From Eledone cirrhosa (taxonomy: Eukaryota), in the NCBI GenBank assembly GCA_964016885.1, contig OZ024761.1, forward strand, positions 7,688,001 to 7,752,000: 64,000 nt of DNA, read 5' to 3'. A program made the position numbers and the translations under genes. This document shows positions 15,140 through 64,000 of the stretch, piece by piece. Every line of letters starts with the position of its first letter. Within the stretch, counting starts at the first letter, position 1. A model generated the notes under the pieces. That model was not told where the DNA came from. It saw only the letters and a program-made list of their open reading frames with translations, and made no database searches.

Positions 15140-15740
15140 ATTCCTGGGAAGGTGACAGGGCGGGGGCAGACTCCTCAAACACTCCTTTCCAGCGGGTCCT
15201 GTCAGAGGCAATTGTCTCCAACTGATCTGGCTGGATCCACAAACAAGACCAGCTGAGCTAATGGGCTGGGTGCTTTTTTTTTTGCCGTGGCACCTCCACA
15301 ACCACTTTGCAGTGGGAGGGTGTGGGGGAATATTGTCAATATGCTTCAGCTTCGGATTGCTCCTTGTTTTCTGTATAACTGCATGACCCCAGAGGTCACG
15401 GTCGTGTGTCATTGCACTTGAGAGGTGCAATTGGGTAAGGTCGGCCTTTATCACCTCATCCCAGGTCTTCTTGGGTCTCCCCACTCCGCGGCTTCCATCG
15501 ACTTCTAGTGCTCTGCATCTTTTTATGCAGCTGTCATCCTTCATATGCATCACATGTCCATACCAACGTAACCTCCTCTCCTGCACACAGAATTTGATTC
15601 CTCTTATGCTCAGTCTCAGCTGTTCGCGTATATTACTATTACACATCCATCGCAGCATGCAGGCTTCGTTTCTTTCTAATCTGCGCAAGTCTTCTACAGA
15701 CAACACCCAGGTTTCACTTCCATGTAACATTGCTGTTCTT
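15140..15740 (-). mobile_element. RTE LINE 3' fragment(s)
   Basis: AMLHGSETW..RRLRWYGHV..GRPKKTW. Confidence 0.85.
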
Positions 15741-15754
15741 ATATATATATATAC

Positions 15755-16107
15755 ATGAGGCAAGCATGCTCCGTTGTATGTGGAATGTCAATGTGCGTGA
15801 ACGACCCAGCATGGATGTGTTGAGAGAGAAACTGTGTCTGAGAGGGATAGAATGTAGTGTGCGAGAGAGGAGACTGCGGTGGTATGGACATGTAATGCAC
15901 ATGGAGGATGACCGATGGGTGAAGAAGTGCCAGGAAATGCCAGTTGAAGGAAGACGTGGTAGAGGTAGACCACGAAAAACATGGGCGGATGTGGTGAGAA
16001 CAGACCTCAGATCGCTGAAGCTCACGGTGGAGATGCTGTGCTGAATAAGACCCGTCTCACTCTTGCAAACAGGGAAAAGCGGACGTAAAATGATGATGAT
16101 GATGATG
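15755..16107 (+). mobile_element. RTE LINE 3' fragment with (GAT)n tail
   Basis: RRLRWYGHVMHMED..GRGRPRKTW; ends gggaaaagcggacgtaaaa(tga)n. Confidence 0.85.
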
Positions 16108-22333: not shown

Positions 22334-23845
22334 TCATCATCATCATCATCGTTTAAGGTCTATCTTCCACGCTAGCATGGGTTAGACGGGAGTTGTCGCA
22401 ATTTGAGGCAAGGTTGGTCGGGTGACCGTGTCTCACTCGTATAGGACTATCTGGCAGGTTTTCTACGGCTGGATGCCCTTCCTAACACCAACCACATTTA
22501 CAGTGTGGACTGGGAACTTTTTACCGTGTTACCTACACGACCACATTACAGCGTGGACTGTGTGTTTATTTTGTCGTGACACCTACACGATCTCGATCTC
22601 ATTATCTCTTAGTTTGGACTGGATGTTGTGGTACCAACTTTACAGAGTAAGGGTGGTGTTGGTGGGAGTGGGAGGATGGAGTAGGGGTAGTGGGTTGGGA
22701 CGTATATTTGGTTAAGAGGTGACTGTAGGTTTCGCTTTGTACATAGGCAAGACATGTCTTCTGTATTACTGCGTGGCGCCAAAGATCTCGGTCCAGTGAT
22801 ATTGTCTCAGAGAGGTGTAAGTGTGTAAGGTCGGAGTTTATCAAATCATCCCAGGTTTTTCTGGGTCTACCTACTCCGTAACTTCCATCAATTTTGATCG
22901 CCCTACACTTTTATATACAGCTGTCATCTTTCATGCGCATCACGTAACCATACCAATGTAGTCTTCTCTCAAGTAAACAGCATCTGATCCCTCTTATTCC
23001 TAATTTCTCACTTAGTTCATTTATGTTTTGCTGTTCGCATATATTACTATTACACATCCAATGGAGCATGCATGCTTTGTTCCTTTCCAGTCAGCGCAGG
23101 TTCTCTGCACACAATGCCCATGTCTCACTGCCATGTAACATTGCTGTTCGTATACAGGCATCATACAATCTGCCTTTCATTTTTAGAGAGAAACCTTTTG
23201 TAGCCAACAGCGGTATAAGCTCTCTGAACTTTTTCCATCCCGTTCTGACTCTGGCTACTGTACTTTCAGAGCACCCTCCACCACTACTGATCTTGTCACC
23301 CAGGTAACGGAAAGTGTCCACTATTTCTATAGAACCATCTGGGCAATAGAAGGAGCTAGTATCCTGTAGGCACTTGCTACTTATTGCACCTGAGCATCGG
23401 CCACATATAAAATCTACATTCTTAGATAGCTTACCTGTGATCCCGCTACATCTTTTATGTACCCATAGTTTGCATTTGGGACATAAAATGGAATTTCTAC
23501 CTACTCTTTTCCTACACACTGAGCATGGCCATTTCCCAGAAGGCACCTGTGCCCTATTTTCCTTTCTATAAACTAGAACTTTAGTCTTAGATAAGTTAAC
23601 TTTAAGGCCTTTTGATTCTAGGCCATGCTTCCATGTTTGGAATTTCTTCTCTAGTTCGGCCATAGATTCATCTATGAGAGTTAGATCATCTGTGTATAGA
23701 AGTTCCCATGGGCAGCCGGTCTTAAACTCCTCTGTTATAGCCTGAAATGCAATAATATACAGGAGGGGGCTAAGGACAGAGCCTCGGTGAACACCAACTT
23801 TTACACTAAATTATTCACTATCTTCATTGTTAATTCTAACCTAAC
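22334..23845 (-). mobile_element. RTE LINE with Cys-rich (PHD-like) insert, long 3' UTR and (GAT)n tail
   Basis: GVHRGSVLSPLL, ELLYTDDL, CSVC..CPKC..WVHKRC..CGRC, FRYLG, AMLHGSETW. Confidence 0.88.
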
Positions 23846-26800
23846 CAATACAGATTACTAAATGCCAATAGCCGAAGAGTGGTGTGCTCAATGCATTGGG
23901 TTTGCAGAGTTCAATATTAGAGGAGATTTAATATCCAGCGACAATTCAAGCAGAGCAGGAATAAGCAAATGAATGGAGTTACAAGCCGTTAAAACAAGTT
24001 CTTACACATGTTTCGCCCACATGGGCTCTTTGGAGAGATAATTGTTTATATAATGACATCAATAAGTATAAATACTGTTGAGAATCATTTCATCAGTTTC
24101 ACATCTCCCTACATTATAAGCGAAAAAATGTAAACAATGGCGTCAGTGAAAGGGGCTAAATCCACTAGGGGAGGTAACTGTATGGGGCTGGGCTGTAAAT
24201 TACCCTAAAATTTGTTTTATCTTATCCCAGCTAGGGGGATGGTTTAGCAGGGTGAGCCTAACTCGATAGGTGATGGGGAGTGCCTTGGTAGAAATCCAAT
24301 GGTTGGTTGATAGTCTCATTAGACACTGCACTTTGGCCTACCTATTGCAGGTGGTCTAAGTGGTGGTGTAATGCAGAAAGCTGTGGGGATAGGATATTAT
24401 TCTGGTTCTGGAGACCACCTGTAGAACGAGTGCTGCAGTCTGTGGTCACAATTGATGACCATTTCAACCCGAATATTAATGAGTTCCTGGGGTGTGTTCA
24501 CTATATTTCCATTAAGCAGAGCAATTTTTCCTAAAGTTATATGGGGTTGCTTGATCAACTATTCACCATTGTGTGGTGTAGCTAATGTTAGATTCAGTTA
24601 ATAGCGTACTATAATTAGCGAGGGAGGTAGAGAATCTGAGCTTCTTATTTCTAAAAGAGTGGAGACGCGATCTAAATCTACTTTTGAACTCATTATATGT
24701 AGCTCCTATGTATGTACTCGTCATGGTGCATTTGTAGATTACGTTTTTAATCAAGCAGTGGACAGTTGGGGGTTTCGGCAATTGCAATGCTTTTTGTTGC
24801 TATTTCTAAAGTGGTGAGGTCCGTTGCTATTATTACTACTATCATTACCACCATCACCATTGTTACTTGCGAGATGGTGCTATTTCTGTTGTTCCTATTA
24901 TGGCCCCTTCCACAGCTATTGTTATCGCTGCTATGGTTCCTAACCTGGTTGCCAGCTCCACTATTAGTGCTGCAGTTAGCCTCTATGATGTTGATATTGT
25001 TGACGTTATTGTTAATACTATGGTTATTACCCTGGTTTCTATTATTGCTATTATGGCTACCTGTGTTGTTATGGTTATTAGGGTGGCCATACGTTCCAAT
25101 GTTGGCATTACAGGATGGCTTTATTCTAGTGAGCTTTCTGTGGTTATTAAGTGCTATGAGATCAGCTAAGTTAGGTGTAGTAGAGTAAGAGATTTTGACA
25201 TTATTCTTGTTGAGGATCTTGTGGTATCTATGGTTAAGTGGGAAGTTCCTCTCTAAAGCATCAAAGAAGATTCTGGGTATGTTTGAGGCTATACTCCTAG
25301 AGTAGGGGGAAGGAACCATATGACATTACGCCGGCGTTTCCGTGTCACCGTTGGGCTGGTGTGGTCGTTTAAGCCCTGGTGGGTGTTTCTACGGTGGCAG
25401 TTGGACTACTGCCTGTTGTGCGCTCTGTTCCTATTAGTCCCATGTGTTAACCTACCCCTTGATGGGCCGACCTGGGTTGCCCTATGCTTGGTGGTAGGTG
25501 TTGATAAGATATTGTCTCCATTGTTAACCCTGTATGCGGGGAATTTATCTAGTAAGCTATTTCTAGTTATATTGTCTAAATTAGATTGGCACCGGTTTAG
25601 GGATCTACGTGGCCCACCACCATTGTTGCTGTGATGTTGGTTCGACCTGTATATTTTCCATTAACAAGTCCACTGCCGCAGTGGTTATTGGTGTGCCACG
25701 CCATTACACTGGTCCTATGGGAGGGGGACCTAGTAGAACCAGTGTTCTGGATGTAAGAAATCCTACTGCTTTACCCAGATTCAGCCAGTGCTTTGTTGTA
25801 GTAGTCAGCAGTTTGGTCGAAAAGGTCCTCGTTGGCCGAAAGCCTCGAGATACTGTGCGAGATGCTACTCACTATAGAGTTAAGTGTAGATTTGGGGTGG
25901 TTAGATGCTTTGTTGATGTAAGACAGAACGTCACCTGGCTTGCGGTACGGCCTGTATAGGCCAGTATCTAATTCTAATGTTACATCCAAGAAGTTAACTA
26001 CTTTATGGTTGTGGTCTATTGTAACTGAGAGGCCATATGTTTTAAAGAAGTTATGTATATGCTTATTGAGGTTTTCTATCCTACGGGGGTTGGGATTCCT
26101 TACAGTAAATAGGGCGTTGTCTTTATATACATCTCCTTGTAGTGTGGGGATCTCTTCCCTGAGCTTATGCAGGAGGTATATACCAACCAGGTCAGTTATC
26201 TATGCAGAGTCACTAGACCCCATCGTGATATCAAAATTATCAGGACGGTTGGCTCTGGTCCAGTATGAGCCTTTGAAGTGTATGACGGTTCATCTAGTTG
26301 CTAGTACTATGTCTATTTCTTTTTTAGTGAAACTAGTATTAGACCTAGCTAAGATGAGGACCTTATTTAGGAGTATAGGGGAGATAGAGGCTTAGTAATT
26401 ATCTATGTCGAATTGAATACATTTTAATTGATCCTTATCTCGTATATTTGTGAATCATTTGATGACCTGGTCAGTATTGTTCCAAAGAAGAATCTTAGCC
26501 TTATTTTTTAGCACAGGTATTATTCTATCGAGGATCACTTTGATAATTCTACCTATATCAGAAGTGGAGGGCCATATTAATCTAACAGAGGGGTTTTCAT
26601 TAAAGTTGCTTTTGTGATCCTTAAGGGAGAATTTTGGTGTCATAGGTACGTATGGGTCTGTGTATTTATCAATATCTAAGCTAGTTACAATGCTCTTACC
26701 TAATCTGTTTATGTTGTTGAGTGTGTTACTGGGTGTTTTTTTGTAATTTTTGCTGAGCTTATTTGAGATGAAGTGCCTATATCTACTTATATCTAACTTA

Positions 26801-27250
26801 TACAGGTTCTTGGTTTTGTCAGAGGCTACAAATAGGTGCTTATCATTCTTGATTTTAGTGATTAGAGAGTCTAGAGAGTTCAGGAAAGCGTTGGTGCACT
26901 TGTGTCTATTCTTAAACTTGACATTCTTGATCATATTTAGTAGGTCCTCCTTAAAGGCGTCCAACAGTATGTTATGCGGTGGGTTCTTGTAGGTCTTAAA
27001 TCCATATCTGTCTTTGCACCATACAGTTACCTCCCCTAGTGGATTATGCCCCTTTCACCGACACCATTGTGTTTACATTTTTATAATGCAGGGAAACGTG
27101 CAACTGATGAAATGATTCTCAACGGTATTTATACTTACTGATGACATTATATAATCTATTATTTCTCTGAGGATCCCATGTGGGCGAAACATGTGTAAGA
27201 GTTATATAAAGAACTTGTTTTAACGGCTTGTAACTAATTCATTCATTTGC
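23846..27250 (-). mobile_element. Decayed Penelope-like element (Naiad-type RT + GIY-YIG) with inverted terminal repeats
   Basis: Fragments LKDHKSNFNENPSVRLI, FDITMGS..DLVGIYLL, FLDVTLEL..YRPYRKP..YIN..SNHP, PYS..NFP..HRYHKILNKNNVKISYS, CNCR..CPL..CL..NVIY..YIGATYNEFKSR; stops and frameshifts; 23966-24185 is inverted relative to 27019-27250. Confidence 0.88.
27163..27201 (+). ncRNA. Minimal hammerhead in Penelope-like terminal repeat
   Basis: ttct CTGAGGA tccc-atgt-gggc GAAA C-atgt-G TA agag; the degenerate partner at about 24000-24036 (-) keeps the gccc/gggc stem II but has a mutated core. Confidence 0.7.
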
Positions 27251-27274
27251 TTATATGTATATATATATATATAT

Positions 27275-27833: not shown

Positions 27834-28511
27834 CGTTTAGACAGGTTTGCAAATTAAAGATACCGACCGGTGGTCCCTGCGGCTGGCTTACTAGTCGCTA
27901 TCTTCAATTTGCAAAGCTGTCTAAACGTCTAAAATACCTTATTGAGTGCTTAGCTGCTCATTCTGATTGCATTTGTTAGCTTAGCTGCAGCCAGAGTTTC
28001 GATTATGCTGTACTTCCATTTCATCATCATCATCATCATTTTACGTCCACTTTTCCCTGCTTGCAAGGGTGGGACGGGAACTGATTCTGGCTTGATTTCT
28101 ACAACTGGATGCCCTTCCTAACACCAACCTCATTTACAGGGAGTGCTGGGTGCTTTTTTGCTGTGGCACCTCCACGACCACTTTGCAGTGGAATGATAGG
28201 GACACCAGTCCCTATCATCTCATTTCTACAGCTGAGTAAACTGGAGCAATGTGAAATAAAGTGTCTTGTTCAAGGAAACAACACATCACCCGGTCTGAGA
28301 ATTGAACTCACAACCTTTCGATTGCAAGGCCAATTCTCTAACCACTAAGTCATGTGCCTTCATCTATATTTCACCAATTTATATGTAGAAGGTGAGAAAT
28401 ATTGTAGAACAATAAAACTATGCATATATCAGATAAGTAGCACTCAACAGTTGGTAGAACTGGAGTATATATAATAAAGATGAAATAAAAGATGGTTAAA
28501 AAAGTTCCATA

Positions 28512-28581
28512 TATTTTATGATGAGCATTTCGAAAACAACATCATCCTGGGACAAACATTGTGTTCTCATCAGATAAAATA
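28512..28581 (-). ncRNA. Minimal hammerhead ribozyme
   Basis: Minus strand: tattttat CTGATGA gaacacaa...ttgttttc GAAA T-gctc-A TC ataaaata; perfect 8-bp stem I. Confidence 0.72.
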
Positions 28582-28984
28582 AGGTAACATGATATGGGGC
28601 CTGGTTCACAAGTGTTTTTAGGCCTCATATCATGTTACCTTATTTTATCTGATGAGAAGACAATTTTTGTCCCAGGAATGGAACTTTTTTAACCATCTTT
28701 TAATTTCTTCTTTATATATATATATATATATATATAAAACGGAAAAAATGAAACAAAATTTCATTTCCCACTCCCAGCACGGTTGTTACACATATATATA
28801 TGTACGTATGGATTCACCGAATATTTATTATAATGCTCGGTGTGTTTGTAAACAAACATCCCGTATTAAGCCGTAGTGTCTAGCAACCATCGTTGCTCAT
28901 TTGTTCAACACTGACAAAGGAACGCTGTACTAGTCAACGTATACCTTCCTGCCAGATTGTTGAACGTATATATATATATATTAT

Positions 28985-29326
28985 GGAGGCACATGGCTTA
29001 GTGGTTAGAGCATTGGCCTTGCAATCGAAAGGTTGTGAGTTCAATTCTCAGACCGGGTGATGTGTTGTTTCCTTGAGCAAGACACTTTATTTCACATTGC
29101 TCCAGTTTACTCAGCTGTAGAAATGAGATGATAGGGACTGGGGGTCCCTATCATTCCACTGCAAAGTGGTCGTGGAGGTGCCACGGTAAAAAAGCACCCA
29201 GCACTCACTGTAAATGAGGTTGGTGTTAGGAAGGGCATCCAGCTGTAGAAATCAAGCCAGAGTCAGTTCCCGTCCTACCCTTGCAAGCAGGGAAAAAGCG
29301 GACGTAAAATGAAATGAATGAATGAA
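28985..29326 (+). mobile_element. tRNA-derived SINE (CORE-like body, RTE-type tail)
   Basis: A box TGGCTTAGTGG, B box GAGTTCAATTC; near-identical copies at 21098-21445(+), 28021-28362(-), 39753-40106(-), 49210-49547(-); partial at 46068-46367(-) and 61722-62140(-). Confidence 0.88.
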
Positions 29327-29341
29327 ATATATATATATGTG

Positions 29342-29372
<31 letters not shown>

Positions 29373-30571
29373 GTGTATATATATGTATATATATGTATAT
29401 ATATATGAGTGTGTGTACATGTATGAGGAGTGTACATACACACATATATATATGTGTGTAAATATATATGTATATATACATATGTATATGTGTATATATA
29501 TATATATGTATATATGTGGGTATAGGTGTGTATGTGTAGATATAGGTATGTATGGATATGTGTGTATATGATTATGTGTACATGTGTAAATGTGTATTTA
29601 GGTTTGCATCTATTTGTGGGTATGTATATTTTTGGTTGGATATCAATATAACTGTACCTCTCTCTATATATAGTGTGGATATATGCACTTTGTAATCTAT
29701 GAAATTTGTGTGTTTTAACTATGCCAACATGTATTTATCTGAGTTTGATTATTTATACATAAACATACTTGATAGTACTTTAGAGCGTATCATATGCTGT
29801 ATTATACTAAGTGCAATTTACCACACCGTACTATATTGTGTTGGTTATGTTGTATATTATCGCATTACTGTATTTCATTATCTCATTATAATTTTCATCT
29901 TTTAATATACTATCTTTCCTAGCCATAACCTTAATTTATATTCACCTTAAAACTCAATACAACACTAATCACCATTTATTTTGACATTCTTTTAAACTTT
30001 ACTATACCAGATACATTCAACTATCAGTTTGACAATCCCTTTCCTCCTAATAGATTTTTATGCCAAATCTACTATTAACACCCTTCAACCATTCCTTTCA
30101 AAGGGTCATGACCTCAACTAAAGTGTATTACTTTTCATCTTAACACCATATGAAAAAAACAATTTGATTGGTTAGTTCTTCAAGAACCTCCAAATAAGGA
30201 CATGATACTAACATACTACTAATTCTGAATAAAATAATTATTGAATAAAATTATTATTGTTTTTGAAAACAGCTGGTGATATGCATGTAGGTAAATATTC
30301 TCTCTATCTGATAGTTTGTAACTAACCTTACATAGATCAATAACGGAGTATAGCTACAATGTATTATCACCTAGAAACGATCGTAAAGCAGTGAAGTATA
30401 TCTCTAATAACTTGATTTTTTATTTCATTGTTTTAACTTATATCATGACTCTGTTTTCCTTTTAATGTTTTATTGTTTTCCGGGATTTATCTTGACCTAC
30501 AACACTTTCAACATATGGATTACATCGAGTTCTTCATGCAGAATAGACCCCACAACTTACTGTGGATACCC

Positions 30572-33480
<2,909 letters not shown>

Positions 33481-33564
33481 TGATGTGACATGATGTGGAG
33501 AATCCGTTGAGATAAGTTTAAGTTTATTATTCGTATCTCCAAACTTTTCGGTCTGCATGAGATT

Positions 33565-37682: not shown

Positions 37683-38127
37683 CTGGAAGGAGATGAGGAG
37701 AGAAAGGTAAATTTAGTTGAATAAATTAACATATTAATACTAACTGACCCTGTGCTGTCAAAAAGGACGACTAATTGTAATATCTACACATAATATAAAA
37801 AAAGATATGTTCGTTTGTTTGTTTGTTGGTTGGTTCCCTCGTATTCACTCACACAAGCGATACAAACACACAACTGCGATGCATCTTAGAATGCTGGACT
37901 TCTATAGTTACTCACCATCCTCCTTCCTCAGTCATCACATAGAAGTGTGTGTATGTAATAATTATTTTTTCTAAGTTTGTATGTATATACATATATATAT
38001 GTGTAAAAGTTCTATTTAAATTGTTGGGATACAACAAGCAAATATTTTTATAACTGATATAAAGCACTCAACAAATATTTGGAGTAAAAATACGATATAT
38101 TAACAAATGGAAACTATATTTATAAAA

Positions 38128-38207
38128 CCATATTTATTTCATTATACATATTTCAAGGACACCAAGTTAAATTATGGTGTGCTTTCATCAGATAAAATAT
38201 AATATAG
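38128..38207 (-). ncRNA. Minimal hammerhead (left arm of palindrome)
   Basis: Reverse complement of the 38439-38518 motif. Confidence 0.75.
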
Positions 38208-38438
38208 ATCAGTTTTATAAATAAATATTGACATACCCTTAAAGAATGCAACCATTGCTGTTGGAGGCTCCCGGATAGTGGAGTTGTAGCTTTAATTATA
38301 TTATTAGTATTGGATATTTTTATTTTTATTTTATTTTACTAATAATATAATTAAAGCTACAACTCCACTATCCGGGAGCTTCCAACAGCAATGGTTGCAT
38401 TCTTTAAGGGTATGTCAATATTTATTTATAAAACTGAT

Positions 38439-38518
38439 CTATATTATATTTTATCTGATGAAAGCACACCATAATTTAACTTGGTGTCCTTGAAATATGT
38501 ATAATGAAATAAATATGG
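38439..38518 (+). ncRNA. Minimal hammerhead (right arm of palindrome)
   Basis: tattttat CTGATGA aagcacacca..tggtgtcctt GAAA T-atgt-A TA atgaaata; stem I extends past a bulge. Confidence 0.78.
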
Positions 38519-38551
38519 TTTTATAAATATAGTTTCCATTTGTTAATATCG

Positions 38552-38582
<31 letters not shown>

Positions 38583-38652
38583 ATCCAGGGATAACTTGAA
38601 CCGTTAAGGTATATTATCCTTGGTTATGTCAAAATTTATAAAACACACTTCG

Positions 38653-38714
38653 TATTTTATCTGATGATAGCGTACCAACATTTTTGGTACCCTTGAAATA
38701 TATATAATAGAATA
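38653..38714 (+). ncRNA. Minimal hammerhead (diverged copy of the same family)
   Basis: tattttat CTGATGA tagcgtaccaa-cattt-ttggtaccctt GAAA T-ATAT-A TA atagaata. Confidence 0.72.
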
Positions 38715-39423
38715 AATATGGTTTTATAAATATAGTTTCCATTTATTAAATATCTTTGTATATATATATATATATATAGATATATATGTATGATAATAAT
38801 GGAGCTGCGGCGTTGCAAATGGGTTACATATGAAAAAGTTTGTCCTTCATCAGTGATCTTCCAACCATCATAGGCATTTCATCGCTTTAAAGACCATATA
38901 CCTCCGGTTGGTGCGAGCAACGGCTAAAAAAAGTCGTTGGGACACGTAAATAAAGGGGACGCGAGGGTAAACAAACAAAAATGGTTTAAGCAACAGAAAG
39001 TGATGAAGAAAGAGACAAGTCCCAGATTTTTATGAATTTAAATTCGGTGAAATCGTGAACAAGAGAATAAAGACCATCAAACCTGGTTGAAATGTGAGCA
39101 AGGAAGGAATTTCGCACAGGTCTAACGGGGGGAAGAAGAGGTCTGGTCTGCGAATTCGGTAAACATAAGTTCTGTGAAATCGTAGACGAGAGAGAGAAAA
39201 AAAATTCATACCAGCTTGGCCAGCGTGCGAGAGAAAAGAATCACACACAATCTTCATCACTTTCTGTTGCTTAAACCATTTTGTTTGTTTACCCTCGCGT
39301 CCCCTTTATTTACGTGTCCCAACGACTTTTTTTAGCCGTTGCTCGCACCAACCGGAGGTATATGGTCTTTAAAGCGATGAAATGCCTATGATGGTTGGAA
39401 GATCACTGATGAAGGACAAACTT

Positions 39424-39470
<47 letters not shown>

Positions 39471-50631: not shown

Positions 50632-50717
50632 TATATATATATATATGTATGTATATATGTGTATATATAATAAAATAACAGGAGGCTGGTCTTGTGTAAA
50701 TCCTTGAAAGGTTTATT

Positions 50718-50775
50718 ATACTATGATCATTTCAATGACTGGGTTCTGTATGAATCTGGTGATATCATCAGGTAT
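50718..50775 (-). ncRNA. Hammerhead motif (left arm of palindrome)
   Basis: Reverse-complement counterpart of 50889-50946; imperfect stem II. Confidence 0.5.
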
Positions 50776-50888
50776 TCGAAATATAATAAAAGAATGTAAC
50801 AGATAAAATCAATGGGGCTGAAAATCCTCGGGTCTATGATTTTCAGCTCCATTGATTTTATCTGTTACATTCTTTTATTATATTTCGA

Positions 50889-50946
50889 ATACCTGATGAT
50901 ATCACCGGATTCATATGGAACCCAGTCATTGAAATGATCATAGTAT
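50889..50946 (+). ncRNA. Hammerhead motif (right arm of palindrome)
   Basis: atac CTGATGA ... GAAA T-GATC-A TA gtat; palindromic loop III; stem II imperfect. Confidence 0.58.
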
Positions 50947-51819
50947 AATAAACGTTTCAAGGATTTACACAAGTCCAGCCTCCTGTTATTTTATTATAAT
51001 AATTAACTCCGTACTCGCACCACCAACTACACAAACGAAGACAGGTGAGCTGCTTTACGTTGAGTACTCTCCATAATATTACATCAAGATTGACCATACG
51101 GAATAACCAACTCTATCCAGTGGTGAACCTTCAAACCTAAATATATATATATATATATATAATGTATCCCTGACATTCGTAGTCCGGGTTATTTGCACAA
51201 TTTTCATCAGAACCCAACTAATAATTGTTCGTGGAAACCACGGAATCGTAAATATCTTCCACGGAATCGTAAATATCTTCCACGATTTTTTTAATGGCTT
51301 TTTTTCGTGGCAATATATATTATTCACGTTTTTTAACATTAGATTATTAATAACAATATACTGTATTTGCTGGCCAATATTTTACATTGTTTTGACATTT
51401 ATAGACATTTTGATGGATCACGTCCAATATTTGTGGTTATTCACTCGTCACAGGTGTTCTAGGAACATAACCCCCATGAATACTGGGGACTACTGTACTA
51501 CTATATTTTCACAGTAAAGGCTTTATCTTGTATAATTATCTCACATAGTATGTCACGTAGCATTTACATTATTCTGTATTTACTATTATATTTTCACAGT
51601 AAAGGCTTTATCTTACACAATTATCTTGCATAATATTGAATCTATGAGATTTTAATATTATTCATTTTGAGACAATACCTTAACATCAGTATGAGGAGCC
51701 AGTTACAGCCAGTTTGAACAGAAAGAGGTGAGAGAATTCTGGTCAAATACGGCCAGTTTAAATGCTAAAGGGTTAAGTTATGTTCTCTCTGTCTTGTCCT
51801 TCTCCCTTCAATGATGTTA

Positions 51820-53710
51820 ACCTCTTGCATTTTAGTTGCTTTATTGCCTTGCTTGGGGTGAGTAAATCATCATCATCATACTTTTGCTGTAACTGCCTCA
51901 GAAGGAAGAGGGCATCAGTGGTGCTTTTTCCTGACACAAACCCAAATTACATCTCATCTAGTTTCACCCGTTCCCTAATCGGCTGTGCTTTAACTCTTTC
52001 TATTACTTTCATGACCTGGTCCATCAGCTTTATACCTCTATAGTTTCCTCTATCTAGCGCATCTCCTTTACCCTTGTAGCAGTTGACAATGATGCTGCTG
52101 CGCCAATCCTTTGGTATGACACCCTCTAGTGTTATGTGGTTAACAATACGTGGGGTTATGGTGTGACCTACCGACCCAGATGCCTTCAGCATCTCGGCAG
52201 CTATACCCGATGGACCGGTTGCCTTCCCCATCTTCATATCTTTAATTGCCTTACTTACTACGCTGCTGCTGACTTGTACTGCTGGCCCCTCTACAGGGTT
52301 CGCTTGGATACATTCTGGATACACTTCTCTCCAATGACATCACAATTCTCTTTGACACACTGCCTCGCAATCTTGAACACCTCCTGTTTCTGGTCCTCAC
52401 GTTGTAAGACATGCTTGAATTTTCTATCCTCCGCTTCCCTTCTAGCTAAGTATACTTGTTGCCTAGCTTCCCTCCTGATCTCTAAGTAATGTACCCTGCT
52501 TCCCCCGTTCTTCCATTCTTTCCATGCCTGTCTCTTAGCCTTAATTGCCTCATCTACCTTATTGTTCCACCACAAAGTCACTCTCCTCCTGCCTGTGGTC
52601 TTACTCCATCCACAGATTTCGTCCATTGCCTTTAGTAAGTTATTTTTTAGGAACTCCCAGTACTCTTCTACAATGGATGCCTCTATCTGTTCTTCTTTAC
52701 TGTCATAGGCATCGAGTAAAATATCTTTAAATCTGTTACTGGCTGAGGGGTCTTTCAGCTTTTAGATCTTTCTTCTCCAGGTTGGCTTCTCTTTCCAGGT
52801 TCGTCTAGTTCTGACAATGAGGTCGCTGACAACTAAGTTATGTTGGGAGGTACATTCCTCACCAGGGAAGGCTTTTGTGTTTACAACCATCCATCTATTA
52901 TGCCCTCTAATGAGGATAAAATCTATCTGACTAGAATGCTCCCCTGATCTAAGTTTGTGTTACATATTGACATGTCATTGGTGTCGCAGAATTCCAGAAG
53001 CCTGAAACCTTCTTCATTTCTTGTGCCAAACCTGTGGCCTCCATGGACTCTATAGACGCCGTCACGGTGTTTCCCAATGTTACCACGTATAAAATCTCCT
53101 GCAATGATTAGGAAGTCATTGTCATTTGTTAGGGCAATAGTGGGCATTAGGGATTAGTAAAACCTATCCTTAAGTTCGTCTGGCAATCCCCATCGGGGTG
53201 TGTAAGCTGATATAATTGTAGCAATTGTTTTATTCAGGATAAGTCTGAGTTTAATGATTCTTGCGTTTACTCTGTTCACTGAAATTACCTTATCAACCCA
53301 TTTTTTGTCAGCTAATAATATACCTTCACCACCGATCCCGTTGTCATTTCCCACCCAGAAAAATTTGTAGCATTGACTTTTGTCTACAAGGACTCTAGCG
53401 GACTCTCCACTCCATCTAGTCCCTTGCACACATCATACATCATACATCAATTTCCTTTTGCTCTAGCATCTCTACAATTTCTCCTGCTCTTCCTTTCATT
53501 GTGCTTACAATGATGGTTGCAACTTTGAGTTTTTGACATTTGCCATCACTCGTAGGATGGGGTGAATTTTTGCGGGGTGTATGCTTCCTGTCTCTGGATT
53601 GTTTGGGTGTTTGGTAACTCGTGAATTCATATTCATTTATGAATTCGGGGTTGTTCCATTTATCCTCAGCTCATCCATAGATATCAGAAAAAGAATTATT
53701 TAGTGCAGGG
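51820..53710 (-). mobile_element. RTE LINE, APE plus N-terminal RT, decayed
   Basis: TRWSG, IISAYTP, WWN, GKATGPSGI..EMLK, YKGKGD..NYRGIKL. Confidence 0.88.
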
Positions 53711-56157: not shown

Positions 56158-57132
56158 CAGAGGTTCTCAAAGTGGGTGCTACTTCCCCCTGGGGAGCATT
56201 GAGAAGGCCCAGGTGGTGCTGGTGTCTAAGGGGGTTATATGGGGGAGTAGAGATGATATAATACTATATTAAATATCAAATGATACATATTATACGTGGA
56301 AAGTTGGCAGTAGTAATCGCAGTGATAAGAACATTTTTCCAATGCAGGTGGGTTCTATAGAAGTGGTTGATAGCTTCCGGTACCTAGGTGATCAGATTAG
56401 CATGGGAGGGGGGGGATGTTCCGAGGCCATAGTATCTAGAATAAGCACGGGTTGGAAGAAGTTTAGGGAGCTGCTTCCTCTGTTGACAAAGAGGGGTTTC
56501 TCCCTGCGTACGAAAGGCTGGTTAAATGATGCCTGTGTGAGATGTGCGATGCTGCATGGTAGTGAGACATGGGCAGCAACTGCAGAGGATATGCGATGGC
56601 TGGAGAGAAATGAAGCAAGCATGCTCTGTTGGATGTGCAATGACAATGTGCGTGAACGACCAAGCATAGATGAGTTAAGAGAGAAACTGGGTATAAGAGG
56701 GATAAGTTGTGGTGTGCAGGAGAGAAGGCTGAGATGGTATGGACATATGATGTGCATGGAAGATGACCGCTGGGTAGAGAAGTGCCAAGAAATCCCAGTA
56801 GAAGGAAGACGCAGTAGAGGTAGACAATGAAAAACATGGGCAGAGGTGGTGGGAGCAGACCTCAGATCGCTGAAAATCAGTGGAGATGACGAGGGACCAT
56901 AACAAGTGGAAAGATGCTGTGCTGAATAGGACCTGTCCAACCCTTGCAAGCAGGGAAAAGCGGACGTAAAATGATGATGATGATAGTATATATTATATTA
57001 TTTATTTTATATAGTTATGATTTTATTTATTATATATTATTTACAACTTGTGTGTATACAGGTCCCTCTGGAAATAGGGGTGGAGGGTGCTGAAGGAGTG
57101 TGGGGGTGGCCCCAAAGGTTTGAGAACCTCTG
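56158..57132. mobile_element. hAT-like MITE (host of the RTE insertion)
   Basis: TIRs CAGAGGTTCTCAAA / TTTGAGAACCTCTG; imperfect 8-bp flanks tcttaaac / ttttagac; relative at 10527-11463. Confidence 0.65.
56341..56985 (+). mobile_element. RTE LINE 3' fragment nested in a MITE
   Basis: FRYLG..AMLHGSETW..RRLRWYGH; tail gggaaaagcggacgtaaaa(tga)n. Confidence 0.88.
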
Positions 57133-63062: not shown

Positions 63063-63725
63063 CTGTAAAATATTTACAAATTTGTAAATAAATTAAAAAA
63101 ATGTGTATATGTATACATGTATTTATCATCATCATTGTTTAATGTCCATTTTTCGTGCTAGCATGGGTTAGACGGGTCGTCCCATTTGAGATAAGTTGGG
63201 TCAGGTGACCTTGTCTTACTCATATAGGACTGTTTCTCGCTTGGTTTCTATGGCTGTCTGCCCTTCCTAATGCCAACTGGGGGATTTTGTTGTGTCATCA
63301 ACACGACCATTTTACAGTGTGGGCCGGGTGCTTTTGGAGTGATACTTGCGTGGCCACTTTACAGTGTTTTGGCCTGTCCTCATCAGAGATGTTTGGGAGG
63401 GTGAGATGGGGTAGTGCAAATTGTATATATGCTTCAGCTTCGGTCTGTGCCTGTGGGGAGTCAGGTCTTCTGTATTACTGCATAACACCAGAGATGACAC
63501 AGGTCCTGTGTCATCAACTTTGAGAGGTGCAATGGGCAATATGTATATGTGTATGTGTATATAAACTATTAATAAATATATATATATATATATATGCAAA
63601 GGTTCTATTTAAATTGTTGGGATACAACAAGCAAATATTTTTATAACTGATATAAAGCACTCGACAAGTATTTGGAGTAAATATACGATATTAACAAATG
63701 GAAACTATATTTATAAAACCATATT

Positions 63726-63790
63726 TATTTTATTATACATATTTCAAGGATACCATGTTAAATTATGGTGTGCTTTCATCAGACAAAATA
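63726..63790 (-). ncRNA. Minimal hammerhead (left arm)
   Basis: Same family as 38439; one stem II mismatch more than its partner arm. Confidence 0.68.
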
Positions 63791-63904
63791 CAATATATAC
63801 CAGTTTTATAAATAAATATTGACATACCCTTGATGTCTTCCAAAAGTAACGGTTGCATTTTGTAAGGGTATGTCAATATTTATTTATAAAACTGATATAT
63901 ATTG

Positions 63905-63969
63905 TATTTTGTCTGATGAAAGCATACCATAATTTAACATGGTATCCTTGAAATATGTATAATAAAATA
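63905..63969 (+). ncRNA. Minimal hammerhead (right arm)
   Basis: tattttgt CTGATGA aagcataccat..atggtatcctt GAAA T-atgt-A TA ataaaata. Confidence 0.75.
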
Positions 63970-64000
63970 GATATGGTTTTATAAATATAGTTTCCATTTG

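What the first reader, a model, noticed from the sequence alone, without database searches (positions are those of the whole stretch)
63598..64000. Second palindromic copy of the same family; compensatory changes support the ribozyme fold
Arms 63695-63831 and 63864-64000+ have a different fold-back point from the 38-kb copy, so they formed independently. Stem II reads cacacca/tggtgtc (38465), catacca/tggtatc (63923) and cgtacca/tggtacc (38671): C-G to U-A and A-U to G-C swaps. Stem I variants (tattttat/atgaaata, tattttgt/ataaaata, tattttat/atagaata) differ only by G-U wobbles. CTGATGA, GAAA and the AUA site are invariant.
Basis: seen in the sequence. Interest (0 to 1): 0.72.

Follow-up and report, generated by a model that had tools for sequence, protein, structure and literature searches.

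The report
Palindromic stump of Hydra Penelope retrotransposon
This mirror-image DNA is two back-to-back end pieces of a very abundant Penelope-like jumping gene, each carrying a motif predicted to be a self-cutting hammerhead RNA; that is a known, ordinary insertion product, though the copies' fixed ends likely record how the enzyme copies its RNA from both sides of one DNA cut.

Summary
The palindrome and hammerhead motifs are real, but they are ordinary products of a Penelope-like element (PLE). The motif has 10,516 exact genomic matches (control 0). Full-length parents encode a TERT-like RT with a C-terminal GIY-YIG-type nuclease and bear the published Hydra-clade marks. They insert in (TA)n. 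Each insertion makes its own head-to-head pair, so different fold-back points mean separate insertions, not independent evolution of a ribozyme. Covariation holds in 96 variants (95.9% of cells paired; common variants keep pairing 9:2, rare ones 10:27, p=0.003), but rests on only about 3-4 lineage events. Cleavage is untested; Rfam gives no hammerhead hit. Mechanistic extras: 53 of 63 arm pairs have one long (90-nt tail) and one short end, both beside TATAT/ATATA in the element; 5' ends stop sharply at an initiator-like TCACT/CCACT; at most 1 of 30 starts at the cleavage site. This favours priming from both target ends on uncleaved RNA. The scan noted similar readings for other families in this genome.

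The parts
63596..63831 (-). Long-end arm: 5'-truncated pLTR copy starting 49 nt before the core, with hammerhead and 90-nt tail, ending at (TA)n
63596..63685 (-). Tail (90 nt) between the short and long fixed ends; in full-length elements it runs on into the 5' UTR, and the ATG lies 48 nt after it
63726..63790 (-). Hammerhead motif of the left arm (core starts 63782; predicted cut after 63734); C·A mismatch in stem II
63832..64000 (+). Short-end arm: pLTR copy starting about 82-86 nt before the core; ends 9 nt past the window at ...ATATCG, then (TA)n
63827..63835 (.). Head-to-head junction; CCCT at the end of the left arm matches the element's CCCT just before GATGTC (short microhomology, inferred)
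63905..63969 (+). Type I hammerhead motif: stem I 63905-63912 with 63962-63969; CUGAUGA 63913-63919; stem II 63920-63949 with an internal C·C; GAA 63950-63952; stem III ATA-TG-TAT 63953-63960 (self-complementary); predicted cut after A63961 (AUA)
63881..63987 (+). Predicted distal extension of stem I (63881-63893 with 63975-63987), conserved across subfamilies, without covariation
63574..63595 (.). (TA)n target, left flank; (TA)n also follows the right arm beyond the window
38005..38551 (.). Sibling palindrome of another subfamily (C-G pair in stem II), long end on the left and short end on the right
38602..38758 (+). Solo short-end arm of a more distant subfamily (G-C/U-A pairs, U·U at the base of stem II)

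Best explanation
This is a dead-end insertion of a Hydra-type Penelope-like retrotransposon: two 5'-truncated copies of its pseudo-LTR, each with a predicted type I hammerhead ribozyme, joined head to head inside a (TA)n tract, likely made when both ends of one cut in the target primed reverse transcription on uncleaved element RNA. Shown: the family, the parent ORF and its clade marks, the (TA)n flanks, two fixed 3' ends 90 nt apart, one long and one short end per insertion, and a sharp stop of 5' ends 90 nt before the core. Inferred: RNA starts at that stop (initiator-like TCACT/CCACT) in the upstream pLTR; the RT-nuclease cuts (TA)n; each DNA end pairs with a UAUAU/AUAUA next to one of the two internal start sites; both cDNAs run towards the RNA 5' end and are joined by microhomology. 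The hammerhead fold is under selection in the active lineage. It likely cleaves weakly and as a dimer, and it would be masked in any read-through RNA of this palindrome.
For: 10,516 exact motif matches, control 0. 18 of 20 loci fetched around the ORF have the hammerhead arm downstream of it; L061 and L067 have pLTR, tail and a 743-codon open frame. The model's best structural hits are TERTs (pLDDT 84). The profile aligns over 590 columns to a canonical PLE RT-nuclease, probability 95.5%. RW[KR], DKT, CxCX5C, CxxC and CxH are present and CCHH absent, as defined for Hydra in PMC8557442 section 11. 53 of 63 adjacent divergent arm pairs are long+short (53 of 58 classifiable, p about 2e-11). In 30 tail copies taken in chromosome order: 30 end at the same site before TA repeats, 20 have an adjacent inverted partner, and 19 of those end at the short site. 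The short-end arm reaches farther 5' in 24 pairs, the long-end arm in 8, equal in 6; in this window it is the short-end arm (-82 against -49). Farthest reach: 17 of 30 in -90..-62, 0 in -91..-140 (my tally). Genome-wide, 74 of 460 have a non-template base just before -90, against 1 of the first 100 listed one base further up. Frangieh et al. showed in vitro cleavage and extension of both strands, two internal RT starts bounding the tail, and no need for ribozyme cleavage (PMC11167929).
Against: No RNA or cleavage data. Rfam gives no hammerhead hit, even at E up to 10. The 65-nt hammerhead conformer is 4.5-7.2 kcal/mol above the MFE in all four window variants folded. RNAalifold gave no pairs on the 96 short rows and, on 12 short rows, an alternative helix that sequesters GAAA; stems I and II in hammerhead register appeared only with longer flanks. 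G10.1-C11.1 is absent. The tail (90 nt) and unit (about 4.3 kb in L067) are longer than published (30-40 nt; under 3 kb for Hydra). Some pairs with kb-sized gaps may be separate insertions. The polarity count is biased for one subfamily by the reference used; young-subfamily pairs alone give 11 short, 6 long, 2 equal (my tally). Frangieh et al. report RT start at a site not homologous to the target, unlike the TA match inferred here.
Confidence: 0.9

Rival explanations
1. Same element, but the palindrome forms by self-priming (fold-back) of one cDNA or of an antisense template, as proposed by Arkhipova et al. 2013, then resolved by the nuclease at the short site.
For: PMC3846280 argues this for head-to-head PLE palindromes. 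Arms are near-identical: median 1.5% within pairs against 9.8% between random arms; 17 of 53 pairs identical. 6 of 38 short pairs meet at about equal reach.
Against: A fold-back from a tail-primed cDNA cannot give the tailless arm extra 5' sequence, yet it has it here and in 24 of 38 pairs, and the opposite polarity also occurs. 5' ends pile at a sense-strand initiator-like site.
Confidence: 0.2
2. The hammerhead is a vestigial or purely structural element (protein-binding or RT-positioning hairpin) and does not cleave in vivo; pairing is kept for structure only.
For: At most 1 of 30 tail copies starts at the cut site. G10.1-C11.1 is missing and U·U is common at that pair (40 of 178 copies). 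Published minimal PLE hammerheads cleave poorly (PMC4209133). Flanks are as conserved as the core.
Against: No core column carries a variant in 5 or more of 178 copies, though the sample was picked for near-intact cores. The stem III octamer stays self-complementary in both main subfamilies (AUAUGUAU, AUAUAUAU). The related Anolis ribozyme cleaves when its protein is added.
Confidence: 0.3
3. A non-autonomous retrozyme or a purpose-built host regulatory hairpin with independently evolved ribozymes.
For: Most copies are short and lack the ORF. A read-through RNA would form a long hairpin of about 140 bp or more.
Against: No tandem monomer array here; the same sequence is the pLTR of ORF-bearing elements. 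Ends are set by the element's two fixed sites.
Confidence: 0.04

Closest known systems
Hydra clade of C-terminal EN+ Penelope-like elements (Craig et al. 2021, PMC8557442; seen: passages, section 11, supplement part 2 of 59 and one supplement search), including Hydra-1_Obim from Octopus bimaculoides
   Same: RW[KR], DKT, CxCX5C linker, CxxC and CxH around the nuclease E/N, no CCHH, type I hammerhead near the 3' end, (TA)n target, inverted 5'-truncated copy, tail at one end. U·U at the base of stem II is common in the listed Hydra hammerheads.
   Different: The hammerhead sequence is unlike the Hydra-1_oBim row of File S2. The unit is about 4.3 kb with a long 3' UTR (published under 3 kb); the tail is 90 nt (30-40 nt published for PLEs); the cleavage triplet is AUA.
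PAc Poseidon element of Anolis (Frangieh et al. 2024, PMC11167929; seen: parts 1-2 of 4)
   Same: Two internal RT start sites bound the tail; AT-rich target; both strands cut and extended; uncleaved RNA is the template.
   Different: Different clade. There the hammerhead overlaps the ORF start and the RT start is reported as non-homologous to the target; here the core lies 235 nt before the ATG and both ends abut TATAT/ATATA in the element.
Minimal/dimeric PLE hammerheads (Cervera and de la Pena 2014, PMC4209133; seen: parts 1-2 of 4)
   Same: Type I topology, long helix II, short palindromic helix III, pairs on opposite strands 100-700 bp apart, thousands of copies per genome with compensatory changes among families.
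   Different: Lacks G10.1-C11.1; has an 8-bp AU-rich helix I with a predicted distal extension.
Adineta vaga Penelope palindromes (Arkhipova et al. 2013, PMC3846280; seen: passages)
   Same: Head-to-head inverted pLTRs, tail on one of them, initiator-like TCACT in the pLTR.
   Different: Explained there by self-priming on an antisense template; the end pattern here fits priming from both target ends better.
Animal non-LTR retrozymes (bioRxiv 10.64898/2026.07.22.740005; seen: abstract and outline)
   Same: Type I hammerhead related to PLE pLTRs.
   Different: No tandem monomer array; these are truncated ends of a coding element.

Membership tests
Type I hammerhead ribozyme | Core CUGANGA...GAA with NUH cleavage triplet | tested here: met
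   CUGAUGA, GAAA, AUA; no core variant in 5 or more of 178 copies (sample picked for near-intact cores)
Type I hammerhead ribozyme | Helices I, II, III around the core, supported by variation | tested here: met
   helix II has two-sided changes; helix I mainly wobbles; helix III nearly invariant, so uninformative
Type I hammerhead ribozyme | Short palindromic helix III allowing a dimer | tested here: met
   octamer self-duplex -2.2 and -3.2 kcal/mol; weak
Type I hammerhead ribozyme | G10.1-C11.1 pair | tested here: not met
   A-U 124, U·U 40, G·U 11, A·C 3; many Hydra rows in File S2 also lack it
Type I hammerhead ribozyme | Match to an Rfam hammerhead model | tested here: not met
Type I hammerhead ribozyme | Self-cleavage | not testable with these tools
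   no assay; no run on record as RNA was listed
EN+ Penelope-like elements | Single ORF with TERT-like RT | tested here: met
   Pfam RVT_1 itself does not hit P0003
EN+ Penelope-like elements | C-terminal GIY-YIG nuclease | tested here: met
   VVY...YVGST...R..H motif; aligns to the canonical nuclease; 2 of 23 relatives hit PF01541 weakly, best E 0.001
EN+ Penelope-like elements | pLTR with hammerhead before and after the ORF; inverted 5'-truncated copy; tail at one end | tested here: met
EN+ Penelope-like elements | Tail of 30-40 nt | tested here: not met
   90 nt
EN+ Penelope-like elements | Retained intron in the pLTR or 5' UTR (some families) | not tested
   no RNA reads
Hydra clade | RWK, DKT, CxCX5C, CxxC and CxH motifs; no CCHH | tested here: met
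   (RWR here; RWK or RWR in relatives)
Hydra clade | Insertion into (TA)n | tested here: met
   30 of 30 tail ends
Hydra clade | Generally under 3 kb (described as typical, not strict) | tested here: not met
   about 4.3 kb from hammerhead arm to hammerhead arm in L067
Hydra clade | Groups with named Hydra proteins in a tree | not tested
Non-LTR retrozymes | Non-coding tandem monomers between hammerheads | tested here: not met
   no monomer array; linked to an ORF

The most novel reading that the evidence does not exclude
Hydra PLEs insert by twin priming: each end of a cut (TA)n pairs through about 5 nt with a UA motif beside one of two fixed internal start sites on a capped, uncleaved RNA that begins at the pLTR initiator. 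Thousands of short palindromes then map the RNA start and both RT start sites at base resolution, and decide between the sense-template and antisense self-priming models.
Probability: 0.55. Interest if true: 0.5.

Novelty: new member of a known kind. Interest (0 to 1): 0.3.

Why it matters
As a ribozyme find it is ordinary: PLE pseudo-LTRs are known to carry such hammerheads and to form inverted ends. Its value is as a young, high-copy family with open-frame parents, where end statistics bear on a stated open question (how PLEs build tandem and inverted structures and choose microsatellites). It gives exact predictions for an in vitro assay: RNA start at -90, RT starts at +97 and +187 from the core, and TA pairing. 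It also implies many potential long dsRNA hairpins in the host genome.

Tried and rejected
Rfam: no hit at gathering level in the window, and only hairpin-shaped miRNA and sRNA models below threshold at 63.5-64 kb. The repeat finder on the whole window was swamped by a satellite. Pfam and PDB sequence searches missed P0003. RNAalifold returned nothing on 96 short rows. No RNA holder was listed; contigs of runs X1 and X4, of unrecorded kind, cannot show ends. Cap signature: G precedes the -90 stop in 29 of 74 against 5 of 62 at -88 (p=2e-5), but in 6 of the 8 G junctions among 22 loci read, the G could come from the partner arm, so it is inconclusive. ADAR-type bias was not seen in rare mutations (A>G 12, T>C 18, p=0.58; 118 arms); dense clusters were not searched for. 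Two different template RNAs for the window's two arms: all 3 differences are alleles seen elsewhere, but 34 of 53 pairs have none such, so it is unresolved. An inverted RT fragment beside L018/L035 belongs to a different PLE and was dropped. Lunse et al. (PMC5785218) was not held and is known here only through PMC6765202 passages. Five paper searches found no paper on this family or on twin priming in PLEs; subscription papers, Repbase and the unread supplement parts could hold it.

Full report
Observation. The arms 63695-63831 and 63864-64000 are inverted repeats with 3 mismatches in 137 nt. Three things were missed. The outer c/c of the stem II strings do not pair. The left arm's own hammerhead reads ACACCA/TGGTAT, with a C·A at the pair called compensatory. 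The insert is asymmetric: the left arm runs on for 90 nt to 63596, while the right arm ends 9 nt past the window; both ends abut (TA)n.

Family. The window lies in a 3.0-Gb genome. A pattern for this hammerhead, with three stem II positions left free on each side, has 5,336 + 5,180 exact matches and 0 in the reversed control; a tail pattern has 3,217. Walking upstream from longer copies led through a pyrimidine-rich 3' UTR to an ORF on the same strand. Of 20 loci fetched around that ORF, 18 have the hammerhead arm downstream. L061 and L067 have pLTR, tail and a 743-codon open frame; L067 also has an inverted pLTR in front and a short-end pLTR behind. The closest named protein is from Argonauta hians, 39% identical, so a cephalopod host is likely (inference).

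Clade. Pfam does not recognise P0003, but its AlphaFold model (pLDDT 84) matches TERT structures best, and its profile aligns over 590 columns with a canonical PLE protein from the same genome. It has RWR, DKT, YRDD, CNCRNKSNC (CxCX5C), CDLC and CRH, and lacks CCHH. These are the marks given for the Hydra clade, which also targets (TA)n and carries hammerheads (PMC8557442). An inverted 5'-truncated copy and a tail at one end only are described there as usual for PLEs. Length (about 4.3 kb) and tail (90 nt) exceed the published values, and no tree with named Hydra proteins was built.

Ribozyme fold. From 194 arms, 181 hammerhead regions gave 96 distinct sequences. On the hammerhead structure, 95.9% of cells pair and 63 cells show two-sided changes, above all 500 shuffles; the number of covarying pairs (5) is not above shuffles (261 of 500); slid controls pair 38-53%. 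After dropping 3 rows whose 5' flank is a junction, pair variants seen in 5 or more copies keep pairing in 9 of 11 cases and rarer ones in 10 of 37 (p=0.003). That points to selection in the source lineage and decay in inserted copies. The tree (107 rows, poorly resolved) suggests a series GC/UA, GC/CG, GU/CG, AU/CG, AU/UA, so the quoted swaps are about three events, plus one at another pair. The sample is enriched for intact cores and for two query subfamilies. Against: no Rfam hit; short windows fold no better than shuffles (z -1.1 to +0.9); alignment folding on short rows gave nothing or a rival helix. With longer flanks three of four window variants reach z about -2, the C·A arm -0.3, and the consensus shows stem I, stem II and a distal 11-bp helix. 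Stem III is 3 bp with a 2-nt loop and self-complementary, as in PLE hammerheads that need dimers and cleave weakly. In a transcript across this palindrome the ribozyme would be buried in a -235 kcal/mol hairpin.

How the palindrome forms. The 3' ends fall at two sites, +97 and +187 from the core, each followed in the element by TATAT or ATATA. Of 63 adjacent divergent pairs, 53 have one long and one short end, 4 two long, 1 two short, 5 an unclassified end; 3 of the 4 long-long cases are upstream pLTRs running on towards the ORF. In 30 tail copies taken in chromosome order, all end at the long site, 20 have an adjacent inverted partner, and 19 partners end at the short site. Either arm can reach farther 5' (24 short, 8 long, 6 equal), which a single fold-back of a tail-primed cDNA does not give. 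At most 1 of 30 starts at the predicted cut (+49), so templates are mostly uncleaved. The farthest reach lies in -90..-62 for 17 of 30 and in -91..-140 for none (my tally). Genome-wide, in two sequence variants, 74 of 460 copies have a non-template base before -90, against 1 of the first 100 listed one base upstream (T junctions are hidden in the latter); all 22 such loci read were true junctions. The stop falls on the A of TCACT/CCACT, the initiator-like word also noted in rotifer pLTRs. This fits the in vitro behaviour of the Anolis element, except for the TA match. The idea of testing a 5' stop came from earlier notes of this scan. A cap-derived G is suggested but not separable from microhomology.

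Verdict. The feature is real and the hammerhead fold is likely, but it is a standard insertion product of a new family in a known clade. Different fold-back points show separate insertions only. The mechanistic reading is testable and agrees with unchecked notes on other families in this genome, which are not independent support. Interest 0.3.

Noticed in passing
window 24536-26955 (-), with inverted repeats 23961-24188 and 27016-27254: Fragments of another Hydra-like PLE ORF, 38-50% identical to P0003, in pieces, flanked by inverted repeats.
   Followed up: no
window 50666-50998: A palindrome of an unrelated family, with hammerhead-like cores at 50771 (-) and 50893 (+) and a self-complementary TGATCA in stem III.
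   Followed up: no
window 28545-28677, inside inverted repeats 28018-28363 and 28983-29328: A short palindrome of a third hammerhead family (core at 28573, -); similar cores occur in L004, L009, L022 and L024.
   Followed up: no
window 38825-39009 and 39251-39434: A 185-bp inverted repeat, 99% identical, ending in a CTGATGA-bearing stub next to (TA)n; it sits between two pieces related to the 38671 copy.
   Followed up: no
window 30423-33481: A 3-kb AT-rich satellite with a 22-nt period (14+8), nearly self-complementary.
   Followed up: no
window 22923-23840, 51866-52303, 56294-56767, 15533-15912: Fragments of a LINE-type reverse transcriptase.
   Followed up: no
L036:6243-8576 (+): A 778-codon open frame of a canonical PLE with DKG and an RVT_1 hit; several PLE clades share these (TA)n tracts.
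   Followed up: partly
P0003 residues 481-517 and 588-599: Asparagine-rich, low-confidence inserts in the ORF, as described for rotifer Penelopes.
   Followed up: no
L062, L122, L002 copies: A subfamily in which a stem II C-G became G·A or A·A while the helix extends further into the loop and a basal pair became G-C.
   Followed up: partly
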